Shown here one piece after another: positions 4,050 to 53,689 of a stretch of 64,000 nt of DNA; the stretch's first letter is position 1, and each line of letters begins with the position of its first letter. A program made the translations under genes and the position numbers. The notes beneath the pieces were generated by a model. That model was not told the DNA's origin and searched no databases. It was given only the letters and a program-made list of their open reading frames with translations. The stretch comes from Actinomycetota bacterium (lineage in GTDB: Bacteria; Actinomycetota; Thermoleophilia; RBG-16-64-13): the NCBI GenBank assembly GCA_016278725.1, contig JADQBG010000010.1:35984-99983 (forward strand), written 5' to 3'.

Positions 4050-4349
4050 ATGTGCCTGGCCATTCCCGCGCGCATCGAGCAGATCGACGGTCTGAACGCC
4101 GTGATCAACCTGGAGGGAGTCCGCCGCGGGATCTCCCTCCTGCTTTGCCCCGAGGCGAAGGTGGGCGAATACGCCTTGGTGCACGCCGGTTTTGCCATCT
4201 CCGTCATCGATGAAGAGCAGGCCCAGGCCGCCCTGGAGCCCTGGGAAGAGATGCGAAAGCTGATCGCGGACGCGGGCGGCGGGGGAGACGCTCGGGGCCC
4301 CGCCTTTGGACCGCCGCCCGACGGGCTGCCGAGAGAGGAAGAGGCTTGA
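4050..4349 (+). CDS. HypC/HybG/HupF-family OB-fold protein (hydrogenase maturation chaperone-like), orphan context
   Basis: Begins MCLAIPARI..., the hallmark HypC N-terminus with invariant Cys2, and has the ~75-aa OB-fold length. It is followed by a Gly/Pro-rich acidic tail. It sits 2 nt after the stomatin stop. No hydrogenase genes are present in the window. Confidence 0.6.
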   Translation: MCLAIPARIEQIDGLNAVINLEGVRRGISLLLCPEAKVGEYALVHAGFAISVIDEEQAQAALEPWEEMRKLIADAGGGGDARGPAFGPPPDGLPREEEA

Positions 4350-6473: not shown

Positions 6474-8867
6474 CTAGCCCTCGCCGTCCCGCGGGGGCGA
6501 CTCGCCGGGTTCGTCCGGGTTGGCCTGTTCGTCCGGGTTGGCCGGTCCGCCGGGTTCGCCAGGATAGACTGGGTCAGGCAGTTCGCCCACCATCTGGTCG
6601 ACAACCGGCCGGCTGTCCTCCCCCGGGAGCACGGGCGGTGCCAAGCCGGGGCCGGTCTCCGGCCGAGGAGCCCGATTCCTCCGCCAGAGCGAGAAGGCCA
6701 GGATGCCGGCGACCGCCAGCAGCCCCAGCCCGGTCAGCGCCCTGCCGACCGTGTTCGAGGCGGTGGAACCGTAGCTCAGAGTGACCTCGCGCTGTGTGGG
6801 AATCACCATCATGAAGGAGGGTGAGGCCACGTAGGGACCTTCGGCTCCCTCCACCTTCCAATTCGGGAAGTAGGAGATCTTGATCAGATGCGGAACGCCG
6901 ATGGCGCTGGTCTCGAAAGTGAGCTTCTCTTCCTCGAACTGCTCGGAGAGCACGGCGCCTTCGGCCGACAGGGGCTCGCGCGGAGGATTGGTCACCGCGT
7001 CGGCCGCGATCTCCGGGAACTGCTCCACACCCGGCTCTCCCCGGTCCCACACGAGGGGAACATCGAGCGCGGGACCAGTCGTATACCAGTCGACCACCGG
7101 AGTTCGCCAGTCCTCGGTCACCAGCCGCTGGGGCTGATTGGCCACGACTTCGACGTAGCCTCCGGTGCCCGCGATCTTGAAGATGCTGAACTCGTCGATC
7201 TTGGTCAGCAGATCGGTTCGGGGGTCGGCGTCCACTTCGCCGGTGACCTCGGGGGAAACCGTGATCAGATAGGGAATGTTCATCAGCTGCAGGTGCGTGA
7301 TGCCTCTCGAGGTGTTGCGCGGCGGGTACTCCACGCCGACGATCGCATGGCTGGGTTCCACCGAGAGTTCGGCCTGGTTGATGAAGTGATAAGGGGCGGT
7401 GAAGGCCGCCTCCATCAACGTGCCCTCCATGGTGTCGTGACTCTCGGTCCAGTAGGGGATGATCTCGAACGCGCGAGGGGTCCCGAAGCGGTCGATCTTC
7501 TGATTGTGCTCCACCATGACCCGGCCGGGGGGTTGCTCGTCGATGAAATCCAGGATCTCCTGGTACTGCGGCCATGCGTCCTTGCCCTCGTAGCCCGAGT
7601 AATTCCAGCGGATCCACCCCGCCGCCGTCGTGCTGGTGGCCACGGCGATGACGACCACCAAAATTCCCACGAGCGGAGCGTAGGCCCGCGCGGATACGCG
7701 GTCCGGCAGACTCAACAGGTCGTCCGCAATCACCAGGAAGGGGCGGAGCAGCCAGGCCACGCCGTAGGCCGCCCACAGGTGCACGGTGAAGTAGAAGAAG
7801 GGCAAGAGGCGCGCGTTCCAGAGGCGCCCATCGGGCAGCGCGTAGAAGAGGATGACCATCACCAGCACGGCCCAGAACATGGGAAACGTCTTGAGATCCC
7901 GCTTGGCCAGGGCATAGGCCATGCCCACCACGCCGAGAGCGGCCACGATGCGGATCTCCCGAGGCAACAACTCATCGAAAGCGGTGAGCTGGTTCCAGCT
8001 CATGTGCGCGGTCCATTCCAGTTTGTCCAGGAAAGGGAGGCCCCAGAAGGCCTGCAGGCAGAAGCCGAGGAGGAAGACGGCTGCCAGCCAAAAGAACGAG
8101 CGCAGGTTGCGGTGCAGCACCAGAAGACTGGGCGTGATGAAGATTAGCGCCAGAGTGGTCACCAGATGCGAAAGCACCAGAGCGCCGAGCAGCAGCCCCG
8201 TGAGCGCGAGCCACGCGTCGATGCGCCCGCGCTCCATCCCCCGGTGGGCCATGCCCAGGAAGACAAAGGTCAGCGCGAAGGAGAGCGAGAAACCGAATTC
8301 GCCCGCCAGCGTGGAGAGGATGTTGGCCCCGTAGATGGAGTAGCTCTCCATCAGCAGGAAGAGGACGGCGAAAGCGGCCGCGAGCAGCGGGAAGGGCGGC
8401 CGCAAACGGAACAGACGTCCAAAAGCGTAAGCCGCCACGGGAAGCAGGAAGACACCGGCCGCCGTGATCAGCTTGAAGGCCAACTGGTAGGGCAGAAACA
8501 CGTTGAACAGCGCGATCAGCAGGAAGGGGAAGGGAAAGTAGAAGGTGAGCATGGGCATGCCCGCATACCAACCGGGCGCCCAGCCGGTCACCTTGCCGTG
8601 AGGCAGCAGGTAGTCGATCAGGTAGCGGGCCGGATAGTGGTGCGCACCGGTGTCCCCGCCCGCCGTCGTGGTGAGGCTGAACAACAGGTCCGGGCGGTAG
8701 AGCCAGAAGAGCCCGATGTAGACGGTCAAGAAGACGATCCCCACCGGCAGCACGCGTGACCCGAGCAGGGAGGCCAGGCGCTCGTTCCAGCCGGCCTTAC
8801 CCGCCTCTTCCCGCTCGGCCGGCAGGAGAACTCCTGGTCCGGTCAGCTCACTCTCGTCCTGCGCCAA
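6474..8867 (-). CDS. Large polytopic membrane protein, probable GT-C-type glycosyltransferase (ArnT/PMT/GtrC-like) with extracytoplasmic C-terminal domain
   Basis: ~12 predicted TM helices in the N-terminal ~450 aa, then a soluble ~300 aa domain and a Pro-rich tail. It is co-directional with, and overlaps by ~20 nt, a GT2 polyprenyl-phosphate glycosyltransferase and GtrA upstream. Confidence 0.55.
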   Translation of the reverse strand: MAQDESELTGPGVLLPAEREEAGKAGWNERLASLLGSRVLPVGIVFLTVYIGLFWLYRPDLLFSLTTTAGGDTGAHHYPARYLIDYLLPHGKVTGWAPGWYAGMPMLTFYFPFPFLLIALFNVFLPYQLAFKLITAAGVFLLPVAAYAFGRLFRLRPPFPLLAAAFAVLFLLMESYSIYGANILSTLAGEFGFSLSFALTFVFLGMAHRGMERGRIDAWLALTGLLLGALVLSHLVTTLALIFITPSLLVLHRNLRSFFWLAAVFLLGFCLQAFWGLPFLDKLEWTAHMSWNQLTAFDELLPREIRIVAALGVVGMAYALAKRDLKTFPMFWAVLVMVILFYALPDGRLWNARLLPFFYFTVHLWAAYGVAWLLRPFLVIADDLLSLPDRVSARAYAPLVGILVVVIAVATSTTAAGWIRWNYSGYEGKDAWPQYQEILDFIDEQPPGRVMVEHNQKIDRFGTPRAFEIIPYWTESHDTMEGTLMEAAFTAPYHFINQAELSVEPSHAIVGVEYPPRNTSRGITHLQLMNIPYLITVSPEVTGEVDADPRTDLLTKIDEFSIFKIAGTGGYVEVVANQPQRLVTEDWRTPVVDWYTTGPALDVPLVWDRGEPGVEQFPEIAADAVTNPPREPLSAEGAVLSEQFEEEKLTFETSAIGVPHLIKISYFPNWKVEGAEGPYVASPSFMMVIPTQREVTLSYGSTASNTVGRALTGLGLLAVAGILAFSLWRRNRAPRPETGPGLAPPVLPGEDSRPVVDQMVGELPDPVYPGEPGGPANPDEQANPDEPGESPPRDGEG

Positions 8868-9588
8868 TAAAACGCTCCTTCCAAAACAAAACCCTCAGAC
8901 GGAGCATCCCGAAAATCGCCCTGGGAATGCGCCGGAATATGCTCAGACGGGGCTTCCGCTTCTCCTCGACCACCACCGGGATGGCCCGCACCTCAATGCC
9001 GCCCCGCCGGGCGCGCAGCACGAGTTCGGTGTCGAACAGGTCCTTGGTCATCACAGTGCGGGGAAGGAAGCGGTCGACGACGTCCCGCCGGACCACCTTC
9101 ATCCCATGCGTGTCGTCGATTTTACGATCGAAGAGTATACGCAGGAACGCGGTGAAGACCCAGCTGACCCGGCGGCGAAACCAGGAGCGCCGGTCCTCGG
9201 AACCAACGATCAGCTTGCTGCCCACGACGATGCCGTAGTCATCGAGAAAGCGCTCGGCCCGCACCATGAAATCGACGTCGTAGAAATCGATGTCGAAGTT
9301 CACAACCGCCCGGCCTTCCGCCGCGCCAAAGCCGGCACGCATAGCTGCGCCGTAGTCGGGAATCGGCAGGTGGAGCGGACGGATGCGAGGATTATCGGCC
9401 GCCAGCCGCTTGGCCACCTCGACCGTCGCGTCGGTGCTGCCGTTCTCGGCGAGGATCAGTTCGTATTCGAGTCCCCGCGCCTCCACTTCACCGAGCAGCT
9501 CCGCCACCTCGGCCTCCAAGCAGTCGGCCTCGTTATGGATGGGGATGACGATCGAGAAACGGGGAGCGGCGGCCAAGAACGGGCTCAC
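8848..9588 (-). CDS. GT2-family polyprenyl-phosphate sugar synthase (GtrB/DPM1-like)
   Basis: FSIVIPIHNEADCLEAEVAELL ... LILAENGSTDAT ... DxD-type motifs of the GT-A fold. The GTG start at 9588 forms GTGA with the GtrA stop; the long upstream extension in the ORF track (to 10038) overlaps gtrA and is rejected. Confidence 0.8.
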   Translation of the reverse strand: MSPFLAAAPRFSIVIPIHNEADCLEAEVAELLGEVEARGLEYELILAENGSTDATVEVAKRLAADNPRIRPLHLPIPDYGAAMRAGFGAAEGRAVVNFDIDFYDVDFMVRAERFLDDYGIVVGSKLIVGSEDRRSWFRRRVSWVFTAFLRILFDRKIDDTHGMKVVRRDVVDRFLPRTVMTKDLFDTELVLRARRGGIEVRAIPVVVEEKRKPRLSIFRRIPRAIFGMLRLRVLFWKERFIGAGRE

Positions 9589-10091
9589 GCGCCCGCCTCG
9601 GAGTGATGCGAGCGGAAGGCGAAGACGCGGTAGCCGACGAAGTTCCAGGCCATCGAGATCGCCGAGGCGCCTGCCTTCTGCAGGTTGATGGCCAGGAAGG
9701 AATCGCCGCCGAAGAGGCGGTTGAGCGTGAGAATGCCCAGGTCGTTCAGGAGGAGCGCCGAGAGACTGACCAACATGAAGGCCACGAGTTCTTGGCGCCA
9801 GCGCTTCGAGCCGCCGGCGCTGAAGGTCCAGTGCTTGTTCCAGACGAAACTGTTGGCCACCCCGCCGGTGTACGAGAGCGTGTTCGCGAGCAGCAGAGGC
9901 AGCCCGGCCACGTGAAAAAGCAGGTTGAGCAGGACGAAATCGACGGCCGTATTTAGAAACCCCACAATCCCGAAGCGCACGACCTGCCCGGCCAGGCGCT
10001 GCCGGTGAAGAAAGTGGGGGACAAAGCGGTGGCGCCAATGCCGAGCCGAGCCCACGGAATCAATCTTCAGCTGTTCTCTCGTCTGGTGCAC
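9585..10091 (-). CDS. GtrA-family membrane protein (flippase-like)
   Basis: 168 aa with 4 TM helices and a GtrA signature (RFGIVGFLNTAVDFVLLNLL ... WNFVGYRVFAF). Confidence 0.75.
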   Translation of the reverse strand: MHQTREQLKIDSVGSARHWRHRFVPHFLHRQRLAGQVVRFGIVGFLNTAVDFVLLNLLFHVAGLPLLLANTLSYTGGVANSFVWNKHWTFSAGGSKRWRQELVAFMLVSLSALLLNDLGILTLNRLFGGDSFLAINLQKAGASAISMAWNFVGYRVFAFRSHHSEAGA

Positions 10092-10355
10092 CCGAATGTC
10101 TATACGCTCCAGGAGGCGGTCTTTGCTGCGCTCTCGCGGCGGGTAATCCTACCATCGCGCACCTCCAAAGAGGTCCAGTATCCGATTAGAAGGAATCTAA
10201 TTGCTAGCGAAGGGCCGCTGTCGTAAGATGGCAGGAGTGCTCCAGAAGGAGAGCAAGGATCGACGGCGTACTCCAAGGACACTGCCACGACTGCCATACC
10301 GTCGATGATCACCTTTGTTAGGGAGGAAAATTGCGGAGAAGGGAGAGGGGGTGAA

Positions 10356-10796
10356 ATGAAAAAATACCTGACCATCACCGCCATGCTCGTGGTCGTCGCC
10401 GCTCTCGCGCTTACAGTGAGTCTAGCGACCGACGCTGATGCATTTTCCCGCTACACGACCGAGCTTGGCGTACCGTGCGGCACTTGCCACATCGATCCAG
10501 ATGGAGCCGGACCGCTGACCGCAACGGGTGAGTTCTTCCTGCAGAATGGTGTGCTCCCGACCACAACGACCGCTGGGGAGACCACCACGACCACGGTTGG
10601 CGAGACCACCACCACCGAGGGTGGGGCAACCACCACCACGGCCGGTGAGACCACCACCACGGGCGGCACCACGTCTTCCACGACGCCGCCGACCAGCCTG
10701 AGCACCACGAGCACGTCCCCGCCGACCACGTCGGCGCCGACGGGAGGAACGACCTCCACGACCCTGCGTCGTGCGACTCCTCGGTTCACGGGCTAA
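10356..10796 (+). CDS. Small secreted protein with a single CXXCH heme-c motif and a Thr-rich repeat tail
   Basis: Starts at MKKYLTITAMLVVVAALALTVSLA (signal peptide), preceded by an AGGGAGG-like SD. Contains VPCGTCHIDPDG (CXXCH), then (G/A)ETTTTT-type repeats encoded by imperfect ~24-nt tandem DNA repeats (10560-10680). Confidence 0.55.
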   Translation: MKKYLTITAMLVVVAALALTVSLATDADAFSRYTTELGVPCGTCHIDPDGAGPLTATGEFFLQNGVLPTTTTAGETTTTTVGETTTTEGGATTTTAGETTTTGGTTSSTTPPTSLSTTSTSPPTTSAPTGGTTSTTLRRATPRFTG

Positions 10797-10826
10797 TCTG
10801 ATTGCTCCCTAACCGGAGAATCACCA

Positions 10827-10862
10827 GAGACGCCGGGACCTTCCCGGCGTCTCTTCTTTTTT
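10827..10862 (+). terminator. Rho-independent terminator
   Basis: GAGACGCCGGG-ACCUU-CCCGGCGUCUC hairpin (11-bp stem) followed by UUCUUUUUUG, 30 nt after the stop of the CXXCH protein gene. Confidence 0.8.
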
Positions 10863-10880
10863 GTATCGCCCTCTCGCGCC

Positions 10881-10900: not shown

Positions 10901-11731
10901 ATGGGAGAGAAGACGTCGAACAACTCGATTCTGCTCGCCGGCAAATTGCTGTTGGGACTCGGGCTGATGGCGGTAGTCATCATGTTGATCGCCTCGGGCG
11001 ACGAGGCCGAGACCGGCACCATGTCGGTACAGAGCACGCAGGCTGCCGAGGTCGGCGAAGCCCCCACGGTATCGGTGGACGACAGAACCGTCTTCGAAAA
11101 GGCCACCGACGCCGGAGCAAGCCTGGCGGTTGAAGCGGCAGTGGACCCCCTCGAGGTGCGCGCGGAGCCAAACGCCGCCGCGGAGATCCTCGAAACCTTT
11201 CCCCAATACGATGATCTGGGCAGCATGACCACCTTCCGCACCTTTGACGAAACCACGGACGCCGAGGGACTCACCTGGTACCGCGTGCAACTGCCGGTCC
11301 GGCCCAACGGCACCTCCGGCTGGGTCGAGGCGAGCAAGGTCAGGGCGTTCGAAATTCCTTATCGGGTGGAGATCGACATCTCTGACTTCCAGTTGAACGT
11401 GCTCGAGTACGGTAAGCCTTTCAAGAGTTACCCCATCGGACTGGGTAAGGCGGACACTCCCACCCCCATGGGCGAATACTATGTGGTCATCAAGATGCTC
11501 AGCGAAGACCCCGAAGGCGTCTACGGAGCGATGGCCATGGGGGTCAGCGCGTTCTCCGAAAAGCTCACCGACTGGCCCGGTGGCGGGCAAGTGGGCATCC
11601 ACGGAACCAACGATCCCGAGGGCAGCATCGGCAAACGTGTCAGCCACGGCTGCATCCGCCTACGGGACGCCGACATCATGGAACTGACCAACTACGCGCC
11701 GCTCGGGACCCCGGTCCTCATACGCGAGTAG
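10901..11731 (+). CDS. L,D-transpeptidase (YkuD domain) with N-terminal TM anchor
   Basis: C-terminal YkuD catalytic motif (HGTNDP ... SHGCIRLRDADI). N-terminal membrane anchor and an extracytoplasmic linker. Confidence 0.8.
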   Translation: MGEKTSNNSILLAGKLLLGLGLMAVVIMLIASGDEAETGTMSVQSTQAAEVGEAPTVSVDDRTVFEKATDAGASLAVEAAVDPLEVRAEPNAAAEILETFPQYDDLGSMTTFRTFDETTDAEGLTWYRVQLPVRPNGTSGWVEASKVRAFEIPYRVEIDISDFQLNVLEYGKPFKSYPIGLGKADTPTPMGEYYVVIKMLSEDPEGVYGAMAMGVSAFSEKLTDWPGGGQVGIHGTNDPEGSIGKRVSHGCIRLRDADIMELTNYAPLGTPVLIRE

Positions 11732-11751
11732 TTCTCGGCCGGAGCGGATGA

Positions 11752-13158
11752 ATGCCGACCGTCGCCTTCCACACCCTTGGCTGCAAGCTCAACCAGTGCG
11801 AGACCGCCCAGATGGAAGAAGCGCTGCTGACCCAGGGTTTCCGAGTGGTTCCCTGGAATCAGACCGCTGCGGTGCGGGTGCTCAACACCTGCACGGTCAC
11901 CTCCAAAACCGATCGTGAGTGCCGCCGCCTGATCCGCCGCGCCAAGCGGTCGGATCCCTCCAGCCGGATGGTGGTGACCGGCTGCTACGCGCAAGTGGCG
12001 CCCGACCGAGTGGCTGCGATTCCCGAGGTCGACCTGGTGCTGGGGAACGCGGATAAATTCCGGCTGGCCGAGCATCTGGCCGGTCTCCATGCTTCGGCGG
12101 ATGCCGGCAACACCGCTTTCACGGTCTCCGCGGCGAGGGACGCCGCCCTGATCGGCACCCCACCCACGGGCGCCCCACCCACCGGGGCCGCGCTCACGCG
12201 GGTGACTTCCTACGCCTCCGCCAAGGCGCTCGCGGGAGGAACCGAGGGCGACTTCATCACCCACTTCTCCGGCTATACCCGAGCTTTTCTCAAGATCCAG
12301 AACGGTTGTGATGCGGGGTGCAGCTACTGCATAATTCCGGCTGCGCGGGGACCTTCCCGCAGCATGCCGCCGTCCCGGGTGCTCGAGCAGGTGCAGCTCC
12401 TGGGGGATCGGGGCTACCGCGAAGTGGTGCTGACCGGTATCCATATCGGGGCCTGGGGCAGGGACCTGGGCACCGGAGACACGCTCGCGGATCTTCTCAC
12501 GCAGCTTCCCGCCATCGAGTCGGTTAGTCGTTTTCGCTTGAGCTCGATCGAGCCCATGGAATTGGACGAACGGGTGCTCCATGCGATTTCCGCCGCCGGC
12601 CGCCGCTTCGCCGACCACTTCCACCTCCCCCTGCAGAGCGGCTCTGACAGGGTGCTGCGCAGCATGAACCGCCCCTATACTGCGAGCGCCTACATGGCCC
12701 GGGTGAGTCAGGTGAGAAGCGCGTTCCCGGAGGCAGCTCTGGGCGCCGACGTCATCGTGGGCTTTCCCGGCGAGACCGACGAGGAGTTCGAGGAAACCTA
12801 CACCCTGGTGGCGAACTCCCCGCTCACCTACCTGCACGTATTCGCCTACAGCGACCGGCCGGGAACCCGGGCTTCGGCGATGAAGGGCAAGGTCGGCCCC
12901 GAGATCATCCACGAGCGCAGCCACCGGCTGCGGGAACTCGGGGAGCGGAAGAACCGCGCGTTTCAAGAGGCCTTTCGCGGCCGGGTCCTCGAAGCTCTGG
13001 TCCTTCAAAGGCAGGATGAGGAAGACCGCCTGCTCGCGTTAACGGGAAACTACCTCCGGGTCTCCGTGCCGGGGGACCGGAGTGTGATCAACCGGCTGGT
13101 CCCGGTCAAACTGCTGGAGCCCTCTGGGGAAGGCTGGGGCGGAGAGATCGTGGAATGA
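11752..13158 (+). CDS. mtaB: Radical-SAM methylthiotransferase, MtaB-like (tRNA ms2t6A/ms2i6A family) with TRAM domain
   Basis: N-terminal MTTase Cys triad (HTLGCKLNQCE ... NTCTV ... TGC), radical-SAM CxxxCxxC (GCDAGCSYC), and C-terminal TRAM. Contains an unusual PPTGAPPTGA insertion (DNA direct repeat ~12160-12195). Confidence 0.7.
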   Translation: MPTVAFHTLGCKLNQCETAQMEEALLTQGFRVVPWNQTAAVRVLNTCTVTSKTDRECRRLIRRAKRSDPSSRMVVTGCYAQVAPDRVAAIPEVDLVLGNADKFRLAEHLAGLHASADAGNTAFTVSAARDAALIGTPPTGAPPTGAALTRVTSYASAKALAGGTEGDFITHFSGYTRAFLKIQNGCDAGCSYCIIPAARGPSRSMPPSRVLEQVQLLGDRGYREVVLTGIHIGAWGRDLGTGDTLADLLTQLPAIESVSRFRLSSIEPMELDERVLHAISAAGRRFADHFHLPLQSGSDRVLRSMNRPYTASAYMARVSQVRSAFPEAALGADVIVGFPGETDEEFEETYTLVANSPLTYLHVFAYSDRPGTRASAMKGKVGPEIIHERSHRLRELGERKNRAFQEAFRGRVLEALVLQRQDEEDRLLALTGNYLRVSVPGDRSVINRLVPVKLLEPSGEGWGGEIVE

Positions 13159-22666: not shown

Positions 22667-23896
22667 GTGCCCACACCACGCGGCCTCGGTCTCCTGCTGA
22701 TCGCCTTTGGATCCTACGTCGCCGCGCGCCTGGTCGGGACCTGGGAGCTCTACCTGATCTCGCTGGCCCTGGTGGCCTTGGTGGCCATTCCCGCGCTGGC
22801 TCTGCTCCCGATGGGCCGGCGGTTGGAACTCTCCTGGTATTTTCATCCCAATCGGCCCGAGGCCGGGTCCACTCCGGAACTCGAACTGACCCTGCACAAC
22901 CGCTCGTGGCTGCCCTCCCCCGGCCTACGCCTGGCCGCGCCCCTGCAGCCACTGTCCGGAGAGACTCTCAGCCTGGACGTGGCCCCCCTGCTGCCGGGCC
23001 GCTCGCGCGCGCGCCGGCAGGAACTCATGCCCGTGCGCCGAGGGCGGCACGAGTTGCCGCCCATCGAGGGCGTGCTGCGTGACCCGCTGGGTTTGGTGAC
23101 CCGCCGGCTGACGTTGAGCCGCCTGGAGGTGACCGTGCGTCCTCGGCTGTTGCCGCTGTCGGGTACCTCCTTCTTGTCCGCCCCTCGAGCCGCCCTCCGC
23201 GGCCGTCGTCTGCGCCCCTTGAGCAGCGGCAGCGACCTGCGGGGCGTGCGGCCGCATCTGCCCGGCGAGCCGCTCTCGCACATCGACTGGAAGAGCACGG
23301 CGCGAACCGGGCAGCTCATGCTTCGGGAGACCGAGGACGAAGCCGGAGGCGAGGTGGTGCTCGTCCTGGACGGAACCCGGGCTTCGGTGATGGGGGAGCC
23401 TCCGCAGACCAGCTTCGAAGCGGGGGTCGAGGTCGCCGCAGGCGCGGGCGCCTATCTGCTGCGCTTCCGCCGTCCGGTCGCCCTCCTGGTTCACGGCGAG
23501 GCCGAGCCGGAGCGGCGGTTTTCCCCAGGCAGCGCGGGCGAACAGAGCCTACTCGACCGCCTGGCCGAGGTCGAGGCGCGGGCCGAGATGGATTTGGCTC
23601 AGACGCTGGCAAATACCGACCGGTTCGCTCAGGCCACGGCGGCAGTCGTGATCACCCCCGGCTTCGGGGACCGTCTCCTGCGCTCGCTGCTGGTCCTCGC
23701 GGACCGGCACATCGGCGTCTCGGTCGTTCTCATCGACTCCTGGTCCTATCTGGACCAAGGAGCCGTTGCAGGAGCCGACATCGAGCGAAAGCGGTTCCTG
23801 CTGCGCCTGCAATCCGCGGGGATACCTGGCCTGGTCCTGCACAAAGGTGATTCGCTCGAGCGGGTGCTGTCGCGAACCGGGCAGGCAGCAGTCTGA
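22667..23896 (+). CDS. DUF58 (vWA-like) protein, MoxR partner
   Basis: Two N-terminal TM helices, then the DUF58 region (GSDLRGVRPHLPGEPLSHIDWKSTARTGQLMLRE ... VLVLDG). GTG start 6 nt after the MoxR stop. Its stop TGA overlaps the next ATG (TGATG). Confidence 0.7.
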   Translation: MPTPRGLGLLLIAFGSYVAARLVGTWELYLISLALVALVAIPALALLPMGRRLELSWYFHPNRPEAGSTPELELTLHNRSWLPSPGLRLAAPLQPLSGETLSLDVAPLLPGRSRARRQELMPVRRGRHELPPIEGVLRDPLGLVTRRLTLSRLEVTVRPRLLPLSGTSFLSAPRAALRGRRLRPLSSGSDLRGVRPHLPGEPLSHIDWKSTARTGQLMLRETEDEAGGEVVLVLDGTRASVMGEPPQTSFEAGVEVAAGAGAYLLRFRRPVALLVHGEAEPERRFSPGSAGEQSLLDRLAEVEARAEMDLAQTLANTDRFAQATAAVVITPGFGDRLLRSLLVLADRHIGVSVVLIDSWSYLDQGAVAGADIERKRFLLRLQSAGIPGLVLHKGDSLERVLSRTGQAAV

Positions 23897-26283
23897 TGAT
23901 GGCGCTTCGCAGAATTCTCTACGGGGCGGCGTTCGCCGGGTTGGCGCTCTGGTCCATCCTCGCCCTCGAACGGGTGCTGGAGACCGACGGCAGCCGGCCT
24001 CTCTTCCTGGCCGGCCTCCTCGGGCTGACCGTGGGACTACCGGGTCTCGTACACCGCCGTCTGAATGCTCTGGCGCCGGGAGTCCTCCTGGTCGCCGGCT
24101 ACGTGCTGCTCAGATTGGTGACGCCGCTGCCCGAAGGCGGGATGGACTGGCACGCGCAGTACGCCTTTTACGCGGGCGAGTTGCGAAGCGGCTTTGAGGC
24201 CTATCGTTTTGCCGTCTTTCCCCTCCCCCTCGAGGACACGCCGGGACTCGAGCTTCTCGTGATGTTGTGGGCCTTCGCCATAGTGGGCCTCGCCTCGATG
24301 GTGGCATTGGGCGGAAGGCGCCCGCTGCTGGGCACGACGGTGCTGCTCGCGCTCCTGGCCTTCGTGCTGACCGTGGATGCCATGGACCGCGACGTGGCCG
24401 TGACACTCGGCTTCCTGGCCTTGGCGGTGCTGGTCCTGCTCTTTACCGAGGCGGGCTCACGCCGCAGCTGGGGTTTAGGCGAGCTCGGGGCCGGCCTCCT
24501 GGTTGGCTTCACCAGTCTGGGGCTCGCCGCCTTCGTGCTCACGGCCGCGCCGGGCATAGCAGCACCTGCCATCGAGAACTGGCGGGAGTGGCGGCCCTTC
24601 GGAGAGGGCGCCAACGAAGTGGTGTTCAATTGGAAGCAGAACTATCCGCGGCTTCTGGATCCCCGCAACGAGATCCAGCTGATGGAGGTCGAGTCCCCGG
24701 TCCCCTCATACTGGCGGGCCAACACGCTCGAGGTATTCACCGGCGATGCCTGGCTCAGCCGCGGCACCTTCTACGACCGCCTGGTCCCGCTGGCCAGCGG
24801 CGGATTCGAGCGGGCCGGCGACCTGGAGCCGTCCCCGCGGGGCACTCCCCTCTACCAGCGATTCAAGTTCGACGGGATCTCCAGCACCTACCTCTTCTCC
24901 GGCGGGCACATCCTGGGGATCTGGCCCGAAGAAGGCTTCCCCGACGACGAGCCGGTGCTCTACGCCTCCCCCTCCGGGGCGGTGCGGGCGGAGTATGCCT
25001 TGCGCGCGCCTGCCACCTACCGAGTCCTGGCCTCGGTCTCGCAATTCGCTCCCGAGGAGCTGGTGGGGCGGGGAAGAGAGTATCCCTCCCACATCACTCA
25101 GAACTACCTGGATCTGCCGCTGCCGAGCGCAGCCGACATCTCCCGGCGGGCCGCGGCAGGAGAGGACTGGAAGGCTCAGGTCGCAGCCGGGTCACCTCGA
25201 GGCGGCGAGTACGTGGGACTGTACGAGCTCAACCGCCAAATCGTGGGCGATGCCTCCGATCCCTATGAGATTGCCTTGCGCGTGGAGAAGCACCTGCGCG
25301 AGAGCTATGCCTACTCTCTCGAGGTTCCGGAATCTTCGTTCATCTCTCCGTACGCCGCCTTCCTCTTCGATCACCGCACGGGATACTGCCAACACTTCGC
25401 GGGCTCGATGACCCTGCTCTTGCGCCTCAACGGGGTGCCTGCCCGGGTCGCCGTGGGCTTCACCCCCGGGCGGCGTTCGGGCCCGGAGTCCTACGTGGTC
25501 ACCAGCAACAACGCCCACGCCTGGGTGGAAGCCTACTTCCCGGAAGCCGGCTGGGTGGCCTTCGATCCCACCCCGGGCAGAGAATTCCCCACGCCCGGCC
25601 CCTCCACGGCCTCTCCCGAGTTCGAGAGCCCCTTCGCCGCGCCCCTCACCGGTGCCGTTGACGAAGCCGGGAATCCGGCCGACGTCCAAACGGGCCTCCC
25701 CGCGGGGGCGGGGGCGGATCCTGGGGAACAGGACGGCCAAAGCGTGACCACTCCCAACGCCTCCGGGCCGGTTCGTTCCATCCTGGCAATCGCAATGCTG
25801 CTCCCGCTTTTGGCAGTGCCTCCCCTGGTCCGTTGGCGCGTAGAGGCCCTGCGCTCCCGCCGATCTCCACAGTCGCGGGTGCCTGCCTCCGTGGAGGGCC
25901 TTTGCCGCAACGCGCGGGACCTGGGACTCCCGGTGAGTTCGGCCTCGACCCCCGAACAGCTGGCGCGGGCGATCAAACGGGCGACCCACATCGACGCGCG
26001 GTTCTTCTCCGGCGCGGCTCAGCAGATACTCTATGGAGGCCGGCGGGCGACGATGCGGGATGCGCACGATGCGGAAACACTGCAGCGCCGGGTCGAACGC
26101 GCTCTTGTCCGGAAGAAGGGAAAGGTCTGGTCCTTCCTCGCCTGGTACGGAGGAATCCGCTTCGCGGCGGCCGTGGCCTCGGCGGACCGGCGTCTCGGCG
26201 CCGGAGTGCGCGCCTTCAAGAGCGGCCGGCGGAGTTCGGGAAAGGAAGCCATGGAGCAACCAAGGAGGCTGGCGTGGCCATAA
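23896..26283 (+). CDS. Transglutaminase-like domain membrane protein (N-terminal multi-TM DUF3488-like, C-terminal TGase core, extra TM near C-terminus)
   Basis: ~6 N-terminal TMs. TGase catalytic core (GYCQHFAGSMTLLLRLNGVPARVAVGF ... NAHAWVEAYFPEAGWVAFDPT; Cys-His-Asp). Forms the classic MoxR-DUF58-TGase triad. Confidence 0.8.
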   Translation: MMALRRILYGAAFAGLALWSILALERVLETDGSRPLFLAGLLGLTVGLPGLVHRRLNALAPGVLLVAGYVLLRLVTPLPEGGMDWHAQYAFYAGELRSGFEAYRFAVFPLPLEDTPGLELLVMLWAFAIVGLASMVALGGRRPLLGTTVLLALLAFVLTVDAMDRDVAVTLGFLALAVLVLLFTEAGSRRSWGLGELGAGLLVGFTSLGLAAFVLTAAPGIAAPAIENWREWRPFGEGANEVVFNWKQNYPRLLDPRNEIQLMEVESPVPSYWRANTLEVFTGDAWLSRGTFYDRLVPLASGGFERAGDLEPSPRGTPLYQRFKFDGISSTYLFSGGHILGIWPEEGFPDDEPVLYASPSGAVRAEYALRAPATYRVLASVSQFAPEELVGRGREYPSHITQNYLDLPLPSAADISRRAAAGEDWKAQVAAGSPRGGEYVGLYELNRQIVGDASDPYEIALRVEKHLRESYAYSLEVPESSFISPYAAFLFDHRTGYCQHFAGSMTLLLRLNGVPARVAVGFTPGRRSGPESYVVTSNNAHAWVEAYFPEAGWVAFDPTPGREFPTPGPSTASPEFESPFAAPLTGAVDEAGNPADVQTGLPAGAGADPGEQDGQSVTTPNASGPVRSILAIAMLLPLLAVPPLVRWRVEALRSRRSPQSRVPASVEGLCRNARDLGLPVSSASTPEQLARAIKRATHIDARFFSGAAQQILYGGRRATMRDAHDAETLQRRVERALVRKKGKVWSFLAWYGGIRFAAAVASADRRLGAGVRAFKSGRRSSGKEAMEQPRRLAWP

Positions 26284-34821: not shown

Positions 34822-36261
34822 CTAAGTCGCCGGGCTTTCCTCGGGCAGATAGGCCGCGCGCGGAGTCCGGTGGTGTCCGCCCTCCAGTCCGTGGGAGCCC
34901 AGGCCGAACATCTCTCCGTGGTAGGCACCGGTGCCGTGCTCGCCCACGTCGAGCCCTTCCATTTCCTCCTCGGGGGTCACCCGGAGGCCGACGGTGTACT
35001 TGATGGCCGCGAACAGGACGATAGAGGTTCCAAAGACCCAGGCGATCGTGGCCACTATGCCGACGGCCTGCACGCCCAATTGGTGCAGTCCGCCTCCGAC
35101 CAGCAGACCCACGGGCGTGGGCTCGGCGGACGTGATGTCGGTGTAACCCAGCAGACCGATCGAGAGCGTCCCCCAGATCCCTCCGATACCGTGGACCGCC
35201 AGGGCGCCGACGGGGTCATCCAGGCGCAGGCGGTCGAAGGCGAGGGCGCCGAGCACCACGATCACTCCCGCAACTGCTCCGATCAGCAGTGCCGAGGCAA
35301 AACCCACGAATGCGGTGGAGGCGGTGATGGCCACGAGGCCGCCCAGCGCGCCGTTGAGGGTCATGGAAAGGTCGGGCTTACCGGAGATGATCCAGATGGT
35401 GAACATCGCGGCGAGCGTCCCGGCGCCCGCGCCCATCGTGGTGGTCGCGGCGGTCCAGCCAATCAGGGCGGGGTTCTCGGCGCCCAGCGTGGAACCCACG
35501 TTGAAGCCGTACCAACCGAACCAGAGAATCATGGCTCCCAAAGTCGCCATGGGCAGATTGTGCCCGGGGATGGCGTTGATGCGGCCATCCGGTCCGTACT
35601 TGCCGATGCGCGCGCCAAGCAGGAGCAGTCCCGCCATGGCCGAGGTGGCGCCAACCAAGTGGACCACAGTCGAGCCGGCGAAATCCATGAAACCCATCTC
35701 CGCGAGCCAGCCATCGCTGGTCCACACCCACTTCGCCACCACAGGATAGATGACGGCCGTCATGACAAACGCATACATCAGGTAGGCCGGCCACCTCATC
35801 CGTTCGGCCATCGCGCCGGACACGATCGTCGCTGCCGTCGCGCAGAACATGAGTGCGAATACGAAGTAGATCAGCGTCATCGGATCCTTGGTGTCGACTC
35901 CGATCATCATGAAGCCCTCGGTCCCGAAGAGCGGAGTGCCCTGACCGGTGAGGCCGTAGCCGATGAGGTAGAAGGCCACGACGCCCATGGCCACGTTGAT
36001 GAAGTTCTTCATCAACACGTTCACCGTGTTCTTGGCCCGGGTCAGACCGGACTCGAGCATGGCAAACCCGGGATGCATGACGAAGACGAGGGCTGCCGCC
36101 AGGAGAATCCAGACCGCGTCGAGGCGGGTGGCCACCTCTTCAGCCGGGACACCTTGCTCCTGGGCGAGGGCGGCCCCCGGCAGAAGCAGCGAGCCCGCCA
36201 AGCCCGCCAGGGCGCCCTGAAGCGCCAGTCTCCTAACTCGGTGCAAGCGCTTCCGAATCAT
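34822..36261 (-). CDS. amt: Ammonium transporter (Amt family) with signal peptide and short C-terminal extension
   Basis: Amt signature blocks (GFAMLESGLTRAKN ... LMKNFINVAMGVVAFYLIGYGL ... DFAGSTVVHLVGATSA ... twin-His region). Start taken at MIRKRLHRV (36261). No glnK follows. Confidence 0.85.
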   Translation of the reverse strand: MIRKRLHRVRRLALQGALAGLAGSLLLPGAALAQEQGVPAEEVATRLDAVWILLAAALVFVMHPGFAMLESGLTRAKNTVNVLMKNFINVAMGVVAFYLIGYGLTGQGTPLFGTEGFMMIGVDTKDPMTLIYFVFALMFCATAATIVSGAMAERMRWPAYLMYAFVMTAVIYPVVAKWVWTSDGWLAEMGFMDFAGSTVVHLVGATSAMAGLLLLGARIGKYGPDGRINAIPGHNLPMATLGAMILWFGWYGFNVGSTLGAENPALIGWTAATTTMGAGAGTLAAMFTIWIISGKPDLSMTLNGALGGLVAITASTAFVGFASALLIGAVAGVIVVLGALAFDRLRLDDPVGALAVHGIGGIWGTLSIGLLGYTDITSAEPTPVGLLVGGGLHQLGVQAVGIVATIAWVFGTSIVLFAAIKYTVGLRVTPEEEMEGLDVGEHGTGAYHGEMFGLGSHGLEGGHHRTPRAAYLPEESPAT

Positions 36262-36556
36262 CTTGGTCTTCCTTTCCGTCCGTTGCTTTGACGCAACACT
36301 CCGCGTGGGCGGCACCCGCTTCTCGCGGAGTGCTGACGGTAGGAAGCCTAGCTCCAGAGGTACAAGGCCCACCTTCTCCTGGCGGCCATAATTTGGACCC
36401 CGGGGATGCGACGATTGGATAGCCGGTCGTTCGAGCCCGAGCCCATAGGACTATTGGACAAGTAAAAATGAAGGCCAGGCAGAAGCTCGCGGGAGCCGCC
36501 AAGGGCGGAGGCGGCGCCCAGGCCCCCGGGGTAACTAGTAGGAAGCCCGCCCGTGA

Positions 36557-51952: not shown

Positions 51953-52831
51953 TCAGTCGGCGGCGGGAAGGGTCCCCTCGATGGCCGCGGCCGCAGAAAG
52001 CAGACGCTCGGACTGAGTGGTGAGCGAGGACCCGACCGAAGAGTCATCGGCCTGACCCGCGACCAGCGCCCCAGCAACGGAGCGCAGGGAGTCGGCCGTT
52101 ACCCGGCCACCGAAGACCTCGAGGGTGACCACCAGAGGCCGGTCCAAGCGGTTCTCGACCGTCGCCCGAAACATTTCTAGCAGCCGACGTAGCCGGAGCT
52201 CCCCCCAAACGGCGGGGTCGAGGTGGTCCCGGCCGCCGCTGACGCCGTGCAGGTGGACGACCGCCAGGCGGTGCGCGTAGCGCTCGAGGTGGTCCTCCGG
52301 CCGTCCTCCGGCCAGTTCGAGGTGACCCACGTCCATCACGGTGGAAAGACCGAGTTCGTCCACCACCGGCCACACCCACTCAAACGGGAACCTCAGGTTT
52401 TCCACAGCCAGCCGTGACGGCTCCGCCACTTCGGCCAAAGCGCCCAGCGATTCAGCCAGCGCTTCCAGCCTGGCGCCGGAGAACCCGCGGTCGAGCGTAG
52501 CCTCCGCGGAAGACGATGCCGGATGGACCACATAGGCTCGGGGGCGGAGCGGCCGAGTCAGATCGATCGCCCGCAGACACCCCTCAACCGCCGGCCTTCG
52601 TTCCCCCGGCCGCGGGTGAGAGAGGTCGGCGTCCACGGGGAGGTGGACGGTCACGCCGAAATCGTTCCCAACGCAAAGATCCGCCATCTTCTCGAAGTCC
52701 TTGCGGGAGGGCAGGTTTGCGCCCTCGAAGAACATCAACTCCACGTCATCGACGAGCGGAGCCAAGAGGCGCAGATTGGGCAGGTAGTCGTCCGGCAGGA
52801 CGTAAGAAGTCGTCCCGAAGATCAAGGCCAT
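51953..52831 (-). CDS. Xylose-isomerase-like TIM-barrel (AP endonuclease family 2) protein; candidate CbiR-type cobamide-remodeling phosphodiesterase
   Basis: TIM-barrel His/Glu/Asp metal-site blocks (VVHPASS ... VENLRFPFEWV ... MDVGHLELAG ... VVHLHGVSGGRDHLDP). It overlaps by 10 nt the upstream cobS, a context characteristic of CbiR. Confidence 0.5.
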   Translation of the reverse strand: MALIFGTTSYVLPDDYLPNLRLLAPLVDDVELMFFEGANLPSRKDFEKMADLCVGNDFGVTVHLPVDADLSHPRPGERRPAVEGCLRAIDLTRPLRPRAYVVHPASSSAEATLDRGFSGARLEALAESLGALAEVAEPSRLAVENLRFPFEWVWPVVDELGLSTVMDVGHLELAGGRPEDHLERYAHRLAVVHLHGVSGGRDHLDPAVWGELRLRRLLEMFRATVENRLDRPLVVTLEVFGGRVTADSLRSVAGALVAGQADDSSVGSSLTTQSERLLSAAAAIEGTLPAAD

Positions 52832-53601: not shown

Positions 53602-53689
53602 GAGGGGACGAGCCGGGGCCGCAGCGCCGTCGTCACCTTTCGGGCCAACCTCGGATGTAGCGGGCGGACACACCGCCCTAGGGTAGCAC

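What the first reader, a model, noticed from the sequence alone, without database searches (positions are those of the whole stretch)
10356..10796. Small secreted mono-CXXCH protein with a mucin-like Thr-rich tandem-repeat tail
The product has a signal peptide, a ~50-aa N-domain containing a single CGTCH heme-c attachment motif, and a ~90-aa tail of (G/A)ETTTTT repeats encoded by imperfect ~24-nt DNA tandem repeats. Such a tail is likely O-glycosylated or cell-wall-spanning. The gene lies immediately downstream of the glycosylation operon on the other strand, and has its own SD and a strong terminator. A tiny tethered c-type cytochrome, or a CXXCH-containing non-heme metal-binding peptide, on a stalk is unusual. 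The repeat tract is also a candidate for length variation.
Basis: partly seen in the sequence, partly recalled or inferred. Interest (0 to 1): 0.5.

Follow-up and report, generated by a model that had tools for sequence, protein, structure and literature searches.

The report
Stalked mini-cytochrome related to Cyc2
A small exported protein of an uncultured actinobacterium carries a 39-residue single-haem head, related to the haem domain of the iron-oxidising Cyc2 cytochrome-porin, on a threonine-rich stalk; the head belongs to a large undescribed family, and related genomes carry a four-haem head at the same locus.

Summary
Window 10356-10796 (+) encodes a 146-aa protein: signal peptide, a 39-aa mature head with one CGTCH, and a 78-aa tail that is 49% Thr and partly encoded by 24-nt repeats. 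A strong terminator follows.

The head is not an oddity. An exhaustive profile search found 278 cluster representatives carrying the same about 40-aa module, almost always directly after a signal peptide. No Pfam or NCBIfam model covers it.

A profile built without the window sequence scores the window ORF at 61 bits. It also aligns end to end with the haem domain of Cyc2-type cytochrome-porins from Ralstonia and Caballeronia, and with the N-terminal haem-1 region of OmhA (PDB 6QVM).

Family members are free 38-42-aa peptides inside MtrAB or multihaem gene clusters, or heads on Thr/Pro stalks, FN3, Big_2 or SLH domains, or sortase anchors.

In genomes about 91% identical, the same locus holds two different four-haem c7-like heads with a related signal peptide and a near-identical tail end. 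A distant relative has all the types in tandem. Stalk repeat number varies.

Best reading: a covalent-haem, porin-less Cyc2-type redox head on a probably glycosylated stalk. Haem binding, glycosylation and the maturation genes remain untested.

The parts
10256..10355 (+). Conserved 5' leader, with a purine-rich Shine-Dalgarno stretch at about 10341-10352. It lies in the 264-bp spacer shared with the divergent gtrA gene.
   Evidence: It is 95-96% identical to three relatives whose flanks are about 90-92% identical. No Rfam family reaches its threshold. No sigma-70-like promoter was found.
10356..10796 (+). CDS of 146 aa plus stop: the stalked mono-haem protein.
   Evidence: The identical product is encoded on 8 contigs.
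10356..10442 (+). Signal peptide, residues 1-29: MKK, hydrophobic core, ADA|F cleavage site.
   Evidence: Read from the sequence. The AxA|F junction is conserved in P0003 and in the alleles.
10443..10559 (+). Mature haem head, residues 30-68: FSRYTTELGVPCGTCHIDPDGAGPLTATGEFFLQNGVLP. A Cyc2-type mini-CXXCH module.
   Evidence: A profile built without this sequence scores it at 61.3 bits, E 1.8e-18, the only significant hit among 858 window ORF segments. 278 cluster representatives were found. AlphaFold2 with an alignment gives pLDDT 81.7 and two helices flanking the CXXCH loop.
10476..10490 (+). CGTCH haem-attachment motif (C41, C44, H45).
   Evidence: These are invariant columns in the family alignment. 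They align to the first CXXCH (CSYCH) in the N-terminal two-haem extension of OmhA 6QVM and to the CXXCH of Cyc2-like proteins.
10560..10793 (+). Thr-rich stalk, residues 69-146: 38 Thr, 8 Ser, 6 Pro; no Lys in the whole mature protein.
   Evidence: The single-sequence AlphaFold2 run gave only a low-confidence model overall: mean pLDDT 55.9, with the tail ranging from under 50 to about 80.
10560..10660 (+). Imperfect 24-nt tandem repeat, 4.3 copies, encoding (G/A)ETTTT(T) units.
   Evidence: Unit number and type differ between alleles. Three TTEPP units are missing in an otherwise identical relative.
10755..10793 (+). Conserved C-terminal end, STTLRRATPRFTG. The pattern STTL-x6-(F/V)TG-stop is shared with the distant relative.
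   Evidence: The tail-end DNA from 10678 on is 97-100% identical in relatives about 91% identical overall. The L009 paralogues end STTLPTGVISVTG and STTLPTGTLSVTG. There is no hydrophobic segment, so it is not a sortase signal.
10826..10864 (+). Intrinsic terminator: 13-bp stem, 3-nt loop, T run.
   Evidence: It is conserved in relatives.
10409..10677 (+). Segment with no DNA homology to the four-haem alleles at the same locus. The 3' limit is 10577, 10605 or 10678 depending on the allele. By alignment, identity already collapses after codon 5-6, at about 10372.
   Evidence: blastn break points and the DNA alignment.
6474..10091 (-). Divergent three-gene set: GtrA-like flippase (9585-10091), GT2 polyprenyl-phosphate-sugar synthase-like protein (8848-9588), and a 797-aa protein with about 9 transmembrane segments (6474-8867). 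A candidate stalk-glycosylation system.
   Evidence: PF04138 and PF00535 hits. The orthologues of the large protein carry PF10131 in precomputed tables, but my own scan gave no hit. Synteny is kept in the distant relative L009.
10901..11731 (+). Downstream L,D-transpeptidase (transmembrane segment, SH3_3, YkuD domain). A neighbour; any functional link is speculative.
   Evidence: PF03734, E 5e-23. It is syntenic in all relatives.

Best explanation
The gene encodes an exported protein whose mature N-terminus is a 39-residue single-haem c-type cytochrome head. The head is a porin-less relative of the cytochrome domain of Cyc2. It sits on a 78-residue threonine-rich, probably O-glycosylated stalk in the envelope of an uncultured actinobacterium that is presumably single-membraned.

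Inferred steps, none tested here:
1. Sec export, with cleavage after ADA.
2. Covalent haem attachment to C41 and C44 by a System II maturase outside the membrane, with H45 as the proximal ligand.
3. The sixth haem position is open or filled from outside the module, because the head has no Met and no second His.
4. The stalk is glycosylated, plausibly by the divergent GtrA / GT2 / large membrane protein set, and keeps the head mobile within or beyond the wall.
5. The head exchanges electrons with soluble or mineral iron, or with other cytochromes.

The locus is a slot for interchangeable haem heads. Related genomes carry a four-haem c7-like head with a related signal peptide and a near-identical tail end, and a distant relative has four-haem and one-haem genes in tandem. 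The single gene here is therefore most likely what remains after recombination or loss among tandem paralogues.
For: Shown directly:
- ORF, signal-peptide features, CGTCH, Thr-rich tail, repeats and terminator.
- The head belongs to a family of 278 cluster representatives. In 141 of the 146 representatives analysed, the CXXCH lies within the first 80 residues.
- C, C, H and one Gly are the only invariant columns.
- A profile built without the window and P0003 sequences gives 61.3 bits for the window ORF.

Evidence that the motif binds haem:
- The family profile hits OmhA (PDB 6QVM, an undecahaem S-layer cytochrome) at its first CXXCH, inside the N-terminal two-haem extension, E 3.3e-5 (PMC9250108).
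- The profile aligns over positions 1-41 with the haem domain of Cyc2-type cytochrome-porins from Ralstonia and Caballeronia, at 28.6-29.8 bits. These carry the published Cyc2 signature AXPXFAR[Q/K][T/Y]...CXXCH...PXL (PMC8406198).
- Cyc2 of Mariprofundus PV-1 was shown to stain for haem (PMC8406198).
- Free-standing family members lie inside an MtrB/PioB, decahaem and multihaem-cytochrome b cluster, and inside a multihaem and NrfCD-like cluster.
- Sixteen family members carry further CXXCH domains.

Evidence from the locus:
- P0001, P0002 and P0004 sit in the same GtrA | X | YkuD slot. Their flanks are 90-92% identical to the window.
- P0001 and P0004 pass Pfam's cut-off for Cytochrome_C7.
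- L009 has three tandem paralogues.

Evidence on stalk and anchor:
- 37 of the 146 analysed representatives have T/P/S/A-rich linkers and 9 end in sortase-like signals. SLH, FN3 and Big_2 partners also occur.
Against: - No experiment and no haem stain exist for any porin-less member of the family.
- The window copy is a degenerate version of the motif: AFSRYTTEL instead of AxPxFAR[QK][TY].
- It lacks the His (NGH) or Met that many relatives have near the end of the module. It may therefore be five-coordinate, which fits ligand binding or catalysis better than simple electron transfer.
- No cytochrome c maturation genes and no redox partner are in the 64-kb window. The neighbours are housekeeping genes.
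- The C-terminus has no recognisable anchor, so 'tethered' is an assumption here.
- A single haem on a non-conducting stalk cannot form a wire. Electron delivery to the membrane would need diffusion of the head or a partner.
- The Cyc2 match of about 29 bits is significant only as a targeted comparison.
- Fold searches with the model found nothing.
Confidence: 0.55

Rival explanations
1. The head binds haem, but as an open, five-coordinate site. It would act as a surface microperoxidase-like catalyst or as a small-ligand (NO, O2, H2O2) binding or detoxifying module, not as an electron carrier.
For: The mature head has one His and no Met. The His (NGH) or Met (KMTGY in Cyc2-like proteins) found at the end of the module in many relatives is Val or Gln here. 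A 39-residue fold would leave the haem largely exposed to solvent (inference).
Against: Free-standing relatives sit in electron-transfer clusters. The alternative heads at this locus are c7-type electron carriers. About half of the family lacks a second His or Met in the module, so an open site may simply be filled by a partner or by dimerisation.
Confidence: 0.15
2. The CXXCH does not carry haem. The protein is a secreted Thr-rich wall glycoprotein whose head binds a metal or forms a disulphide.
For: There is no direct evidence of haem. No maturation genes are in the window. No cytochrome model in Pfam or NCBIfam matches it.
Against: The His after the second Cys is invariant across the family, as are both Cys. 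The module is homologous to sites that are haem-bound in a crystal structure (6QVM) and in haem-stained Cyc2. The locus alternates with true multihaem cytochromes.
Confidence: 0.1
3. The mono-haem gene is a decaying leftover of a tandem array. The four-haem protein seen in relatives is the working product of the locus, and this copy has little function.
For: The N-terminal motif is degenerate relative to the family consensus. A possible distal ligand is lost. The third paralogue in L009 is out of frame in its tail.
Against: The protein is intact and identical on 8 contigs. All invariant family residues are kept. The Shine-Dalgarno stretch, signal peptide and terminator are intact. A mono-haem orthologue is kept in a genome only 65-70% identical at the DNA level. 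The L009 frameshifts may be long-read errors.
Confidence: 0.07

Closest known systems
Cyc2, the fused cytochrome-porin of iron-oxidising bacteria (Keffer et al. 2021, PMC8406198). Compared here with Cyc2-type proteins of Ralstonia solanacearum (L024 3926-5266) and Caballeronia sp. SBC1 (L023).
   Same: A signal peptide is followed at once by a roughly 40-residue single-CXXCH domain. The order of conserved residues is the same: A-x-P-x-(F/Y)-A-x-Q-T-G-x-x-C-x-x-C-H ... L-T-x-x-G-x-(F)-F ... G. The family profile aligns over positions 1-41. tblastn from the family consensus finds these genes.
   Different: There is no 16-strand porin: 146 aa against at least 365. The host is probably single-membraned. 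The window copy has AFSRYTTEL instead of AxPxFAR[QK][TY]. It has a 3-residue GAG insertion where Cyc2 has FPEL, so the PXL motif is out of register. It lacks the Met in the segment after the loop. What follows the domain is a Thr-rich stalk, not a barrel.
N-terminal two-haem extension of OmhA, the S-layer undecahaem cytochrome of Carboxydothermus ferrireducens (PDB 6QVM).
   Same: The sequence around the first CXXCH, in the N-terminal two-haem extension (LATEQYAKDTGKNCSYCHQVPA ... PLTERGVLFMQNGKK), matches the family profile at E 3.3e-5. The host is Gram-positive, and the protein is a cell-surface cytochrome used in extracellular electron transfer.
   Different: In OmhA the module is split by an insertion of about 32 residues and is fused to nine more haems. 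PMC9250108 reported no known homologue for this extension. OmhA has no Thr stalk.
Small soluble class I cytochromes c used as shuttles, such as MtoD of Sideroxydans, c-551 and c-553.
   Same: One CXXCH near the N-terminus, followed by a Pro/Gly-rich loop and a Leu. Free-standing relatives sit next to MtrAB-like genes, as MtoD does.
   Different: Class I proteins are 70-110 aa with a distal Met or His and a three-helix core. The head here is 39 aa with no distal ligand and no Pfam class I match. PDB class I matches are only E 0.17-0.6.
Cytochrome c7/c3 multihaem family (PF14522, PF02085).
   Same: The alternative products of this locus, P0001 and P0004, pass the PF14522 cut-off. They have a related signal peptide (identical only over the first five residues) and a near-identical tail end to the window protein.
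   Different: The window protein has one haem motif and no sequence similarity to those heads.
Sortase-anchored or O-mannosylated Thr/Pro-rich surface glycoproteins of Gram-positive bacteria (LPXTG proteins; mycobacterial Apa-type glycoproteins made through Ppm1/Pmt). Named from general knowledge.
   Same: A secreted protein with a long Thr/Ser/Pro-rich low-complexity region, next to a polyprenyl-phosphate-sugar type glycosylation gene set. Nine of the 146 analysed representatives do end in L[PA]x[TAS]G plus a hydrophobic tail.
   Different: The window protein has no LPXTG, no C-terminal hydrophobic segment and no Lys. Glycosylation is untested.

Membership tests
c-type cytochrome (covalent haem on CXXCH) | Export to the outer face of the membrane (signal peptide). 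| tested here: met
   MKK, a 20-residue hydrophobic core and ADA|F, read. No signal-peptide predictor was available, so this is by inspection.
c-type cytochrome (covalent haem on CXXCH) | A CXXCH motif conserved in homologues. | tested here: met
   CGTCH at residues 41-45. C, C and H are invariant in 72 aligned family members.
c-type cytochrome (covalent haem on CXXCH) | Haem covalently attached. | not testable with these tools
   This needs a haem stain or mass spectrometry. Support is only indirect: homology to the first CXXCH region of 6QVM and to haem-stained Cyc2.
c-type cytochrome (covalent haem on CXXCH) | A cytochrome c maturation system (CcsBA/ResBC with CcdA, or Ccm) in the genome. 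| tested here: inconclusive
   No W-rich CcsA motif was found, and no Ccs, Res or CcdA family among the membrane proteins scanned in the 64-kb window. The rest of the genome was out of reach. The same locus encodes c7-type cytochromes in close relatives.
Class I cytochrome c (PF00034 / PF13442) | A match to the family model. | tested here: not met
   No Pfam or NCBIfam hit even at E 10.
Class I cytochrome c (PF00034 / PF13442) | A distal Met (or His) ligand C-terminal to the CXXCH. | tested here: not met
   The mature protein has one His and no Met.
Cyc2 fused cytochrome-porin | A signal peptide and a single CXXCH close to the N-terminus. | tested here: met
Cyc2 fused cytochrome-porin | An AXPXFAR[Q/K][T/Y] motif upstream of the CXXCH (PMC8406198). 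| tested here: not met
   The window has A-F-S-R-Y-T-T-E-L in that register. The wider family does carry the motif (for example ALPIYARQT in P0018), and the window aligns to it at profile level.
Cyc2 fused cytochrome-porin | A PXL motif four residues after the CXXCH. | tested here: not met
   The window has CH-IDPDGAGPL. The Pro-Leu pair follows a 3-residue insertion relative to the Cyc2-like CH-VSFPEL.
Cyc2 fused cytochrome-porin | A 16-strand beta-barrel porin, with a total length of at least 365 aa. | tested here: not met
   The protein is 146 aa. After the head comes only a Thr-rich low-complexity tail.
   61.3 bits, E 1.8e-18, profile positions 1-40, the only hit in the window.
   In 141 of 146 representatives the CXXCH is within the first 80 residues.
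Cytochrome c7/c3 (PF14522) | Three or four closely spaced haem motifs and a match to the model. | tested here: not met
   The window protein has one CXXCH and no hit. The alleles P0001 and P0004 at the same locus do meet it.
Sortase substrate (LPXTG cell-wall anchor) | LPXTG, then a hydrophobic segment, then a basic tail at the C-terminus. | tested here: not met
   The protein ends ...STTLRRATPRFTG, with no hydrophobic stretch. Nine other family members do have such a signal.
O-glycosylated Thr/Pro-rich envelope glycoprotein | Glycan on the Ser/Thr-rich region. | not testable with these tools
   Only the composition (49% Thr in the tail) and the neighbouring GtrA and GT2 genes are known.
O-glycosylated Thr/Pro-rich envelope glycoprotein | A dedicated polyprenyl-phosphate-sugar pathway (flippase, GT2 synthase, GT-C transferase) next to the gene. 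| tested here: inconclusive
   GtrA (PF04138) and GT2 (PF00535) are confirmed. The 797-aa polytopic protein gave no Pfam hit in my scan, although its orthologues are tagged PF10131 in precomputed tables. The synteny is conserved, but so are the housekeeping neighbours.

The most novel reading that the evidence does not exclude
The roughly 39-residue head is a working c-type cytochrome in its own right, among the smallest natural ones. It would be the single-membrane (monoderm) counterpart of Cyc2: a Cyc2-type haem head without a porin, held on a glycosylated flexible stalk so that it can shuttle electrons between extracellular iron or minerals and the membrane. On this reading the signature that papers treat as unique to Cyc2, and use to call iron oxidisers, would mark a much wider module family. 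That family includes roughly 40-residue free peptides in MtrAB clusters. The locus would be a recombination slot where one-haem and four-haem heads are exchanged between tandem paralogues that share leader and tail sequences.
Probability: 0.25. Interest if true: 0.8.

Novelty: new variant of a known kind. Interest (0 to 1): 0.62.

Why it matters
If the head binds haem, three things follow.

1. The Cyc2 cytochrome domain is not restricted to outer-membrane porins. It is a portable module of about 40 residues, found in Actinomycetota (this lineage and a Thermoleophilia MAG), in Chloroflexota MAGs and in uncultured genomes with MtrAB-type clusters, both free and fused. This affects how Cyc2-like motifs are used as markers of iron oxidation.

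2. It gives a candidate for how bacteria with one membrane and a thick wall expose a redox centre: a minimal haem head on a mucin-like stalk.

3. The free 38-42-residue forms and this 39-residue head would be very small natural haem proteins, attractive for biophysics and design.

The exchange of one-haem and four-haem heads at a single syntenic locus, together with stalk repeat polymorphism, also gives a compact natural example of domain swapping in surface redox proteins.

Tried and rejected
- Pfam and NCBIfam scans of the window protein and of about 30 family members found no model covering the module. The weak 'choice-of-anchor V' hit on P0100 also matched an ordinary class I domain in P0051, so it is generic.
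- AlphaFold2 on the single sequence was poor: pLDDT 56.
- Genome and metagenome scans with the neighbouring YkuD protein returned only loci already in hand, so no wider survey of alleles was possible.
- Two contig look-ups failed because the longest-ORF start codons were wrong.
- The contexts of P0006, P0008 and P0013 were uninformative.
- A search for CcsA/ResB-type proteins in the window was negative.
- An Rfam scan of the leader and tail found nothing above threshold.
- The idea that the leader and tail end are exceptionally conserved was toned down. Sliding identity elsewhere in the flanks also reaches 0.96-1.0.
- A sortase-type anchor was rejected (no hydrophobic tail).
- Attachment by the downstream L,D-transpeptidase was considered. 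The mature protein has no Lys, so only the N-terminal amine could serve as acceptor. This remains pure speculation.
- BLASTP of P0001 against L009 gene 1 gave only a weak local match, E 0.009. Orthology of the four-haem heads therefore rests mainly on motif order seen by eye.
- The paper library has nothing on porin-less Cyc2 domains.
Full report
**1. What is in the sequence**

Window 10356-10796 (+) is an intact ORF of 146 codons.
- It starts MKKYLTITAMLVVVAALALTVSLATDADA|FSRY. This is a basic N-terminus, a 20-residue hydrophobic core and an AxA site, which reads as a Sec signal peptide. I had no predictor, so this is by inspection.
- The mature protein would be 117 aa.
- Its head is 39 residues: FSRYTTELGVPCGTCHIDPDGAGPLTATGEFFLQNGVLP. 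It has one CXXCH, one His, no Met and no Lys.
- Its tail is 78 residues with 38 Thr, 8 Ser and 6 Pro.
- The first third of the tail is encoded by an imperfect 24-nt repeat (10560-10660, 4.3 copies). A 15-nt repeat lies at 10708-10741.
- A 13-bp GC-rich hairpin with a T run follows at 10826-10854.
- The ATG at 10356 is the conserved start. The upstream extension from 10305 is broken by 1-nt indels in relatives.
- The minus-strand ORF 10451-10789 is a mirror artefact of the ACC-rich repeat.
- The identical protein is encoded on 8 contigs; the five loci shown come from five samples.
The GtrA, GT2 and 797-aa membrane protein genes are divergent from this gene, not upstream of it.

**2. The locus in relatives**

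A word-based homology search found five proteins.
- P0001, P0002 and P0004 have a related signal peptide (identical over the first five residues) and the same tail end as the window protein, except for two residues (PR for RP) just before the C-terminus. Between these they carry four haem motifs instead of one.
- P0001 and P0004 pass Pfam's cut-off for Cytochrome_C7.
- All three lie in exactly the same slot (GtrA | X | YkuD | radical-SAM | Dtd | signal peptidase) in genomes whose flanks are 90-92% identical to the window.
- DNA homology stops inside the signal-peptide codons. It resumes in the tail at 10577, 10605 or 10678, depending on the allele.
- The only species-representative genome found is the MAG 'Actinomycetes bacterium LH_M23'.
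- P0003 comes from a genome only 65-70% identical at the DNA level. It has the one-haem head (51% identical over the module) and a Thr stalk, again in the same slot.
- Reading that locus (L009) in all frames showed three tandem genes, in this order:
  - a four-haem gene, which the gene caller had replaced with a wrong-strand ORF;
  - P0003;
  - a second one-haem gene whose tail is out of frame.
- All three end in STTLPTG..SVTG.
- I infer that the ancestral locus held several paralogues with similar leaders and tails, and that different lineages kept different heads after recombination or deletion. This is inference, not shown.
- Stalk length does vary. P0222 equals P0004 minus three TTEPP units and is otherwise identical. 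P0001 and P0002 differ by one unit.

**3. What the head is**

I ran an exhaustive HMMER search of 1.84 billion representatives with the two one-haem heads.
- It gave 278 proteins at E no greater than 0.001.
- The match is nearly always at residues 25-75, directly after a signal peptide.
- Protein lengths range from 57 to 2180 aa; the longest, P0054, has no CXXCH and was set aside as a spurious repeat-protein match.
- The consensus is A-x-(L/T)-P-x-(Y/F)-A-x-Q-T-G-x-P-C-x-x-C-H-V-N-P-A-G-G-G-x-L-T-x-x-G-x-A-F-x-x-N-G.
- Only C, C, H and one Gly are invariant.
- A profile built without the window and P0003 sequences scores the window ORF at 61.3 bits, E 1.8e-18. It finds nothing else in the window.
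- No Pfam-A or NCBIfam model covers the module. Source names are 'hypothetical protein' or generic cytochrome labels.

**4. Family architectures**

Of the 146 representatives analysed:
- 35 are free-standing. The pre-proteins are 49-74 aa and the mature peptides about 38-42 aa.
- 37 have T/P/S/A-rich linkers.
- 9 end in a sortase-like signal.
- 16 have further CXXCH motifs.
- Other partners are FN3 arrays, Big_2, SLH, class I cytochrome c, and a membrane domain with cytochrome b5-like and multihaem parts.
- 67 have a His, and 16 a Met, within 25 residues after the CXXCH. The window protein has neither.

The architecture of haem head, low-complexity stalk and anchor or tail is therefore recurrent. 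Where a sortase signal is present, the head must be the distal end. Named sources are Chloroflexota and Thermoleophilia MAGs.

**5. Links to known proteins**

(a) The family profile hits PDB 6QVM at its first CXXCH with E 3.3e-5.
- 6QVM is OmhA, the S-layer undecahaem cytochrome of the Gram-positive Carboxydothermus ferrireducens.
- PMC9250108 states that its two-haem N-terminal extension had no known homologue.

(b) Keffer et al. (PMC8406198) define the Cyc2 cytochrome domain by two motifs and call the first unique to Cyc2. The motifs are AXPXFAR[Q/K][T/Y] before the CXXCH and PXL after it. The family consensus is that motif.
- To test this on real sequences, I searched plasmids by tblastn with the family consensus. 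This recovered Cyc2-type genes:
  - one on the Ralstonia solanacearum megaplasmid, 446 aa (AVPAFARQTGMACMACHVSFPELTPFGRFFKMTGYTL..., ending ...GWFMF);
  - one on a Caballeronia plasmid, next to HiPIP and a c-type cytochrome.
- The module profile aligns with them over positions 1-41 at 28.6-29.8 bits, with a 3-residue gap at the GGG loop.
- BLASTP of the window protein against the Ralstonia N-terminus gives E 0.001.
- These scores are significant only as targeted comparisons. The shared position and the shared order of residues make homology the simplest reading.

(c) A free-standing member, P0157, lies between an MtrB/PioB porin with an MtrA-like decahaem protein and a multihaem-cytochrome b fusion. 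Another, P0214, lies among class I and multihaem cytochromes and an NrfCD-like pair.

**6. Mechanism**

Shown: the anatomy, the family membership, the motif conservation, the locus polymorphism and the neighbouring genes.

Inferred:
- export and cleavage;
- haem attachment by a System II maturase;
- His45 as the proximal ligand;
- an open or externally filled sixth position;
- glycosylation of the stalk by the divergent GtrA / GT2 / large membrane protein set;
- a role in extracytoplasmic electron exchange.

A single haem on a non-conducting stalk cannot be a wire. If it carries electrons, it must do so by movement of the head or through partners.

The open coordination site keeps a catalytic or ligand-binding role alive as a rival. 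A non-haem reading and a 'decaying remnant' reading are less likely (see the rival explanations).

The window holds no maturation genes and no obvious redox partner. The rest of the genome could not be reached.

**7. Structure**

**8. Verdict**

The interpretation as a tiny cytochrome on a stalk is supported by homology but not proven.

It is not a member of Cyc2 (no porin, degenerate signature), of class I cytochromes, or of c7. It is a member of a large, unnamed family of porin-less Cyc2-type mini-haem modules.

I rate it a new variant of a known kind. It is of fairly high interest to people working on iron oxidation and extracellular electron transfer. The paper library held nothing on such proteins, though that library is incomplete.

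Noticed in passing
L009 9241-11229 (ENA ERZ25039549 contig_14865): The distant relative has three tandem stalked cytochrome genes between gtrA and ykuD. In order: a four-haem gene at 9241-9810, P0003 at 10001-10399, and a second one-haem gene from about 10804. The gene caller replaced the first with a wrong-strand 117-aa ORF (9450-9803). The tail of the third is split over three frames, either by real frameshifts or by long-read errors.
   Followed up: partly
L018-L020 6001-6225; L022 6001-6222: Free-standing members of the module family, 73-74 aa before cleavage and about 40 aa mature, sit inside electron-transfer clusters. One cluster has MtrB/PioB, an MtrA-like decahaem protein and a multihaem-cytochrome b fusion. 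The other has class I and multihaem cytochromes with an NrfCD-like pair.
   Followed up: partly
L023 3926-5266 (Caballeronia sp. SBC1 pSBC1_3); L024 3926-5266 (Ralstonia solanacearum megaplasmid): These are Cyc2-type cytochrome-porin genes. In the PLSDB gene table, the Caballeronia CDS starts at locus position 4058. That is just after the CXXCH, so the annotated protein lacks its signal peptide and haem motif. The Ralstonia gene is not in the PLSDB table at all.
   Followed up: partly
PDB 6QVM chain A, residues 22-43 and 76-90: The N-terminal extension of OmhA, reported as having no homologue (PMC9250108), matches this module family. The module appears to be split by an insertion of about 32 residues.
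   Followed up: partly
P0222 versus P0004 (same locus in relatives; L010 5512-6084): Two otherwise identical four-haem alleles differ by exactly three TTEPP units (five copies against two). This shows slippage-type length variation in the stalk.
   Followed up: yes
P0006, P0008, P0009, P0012, P0016, P0035, P0106 (family members): Many stalked family members end in strongly acidic and/or His-rich tails, for example ...EEHHDD and ...HGKKYEAHGK...HDDDEDDD. These might bind metal ions. The window protein has no such tail.
   Followed up: no
window 10755-10793 and 10901-11731: The conserved C-terminal end, STTL-x6-(F/V)TG-stop, is not a known sorting signal. The next gene is an L,D-transpeptidase. 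The mature protein has no Lys, so its only primary amine is the N-terminus. Whether the protein is fixed to peptidoglycan is unknown.
   Followed up: no
window 4050-4349, 23896-26283, 34822-36372, 52822-53892: Other genes in the window include a HypC/HupF-like protein, a transglutaminase-like TgpA membrane protein, an ammonium transporter and a CobS cobalamin synthase. None is linked to cytochrome maturation.
   Followed up: partly
window 9000-9100 and 11680-11780 versus L010 and L011: Sliding identity to the relatives, about 91% on average, is mosaic. Some 100-nt windows reach 98-100% and others fall to 80-85%. This suggests recombination between these lineages beyond the cytochrome gene.
   Followed up: no
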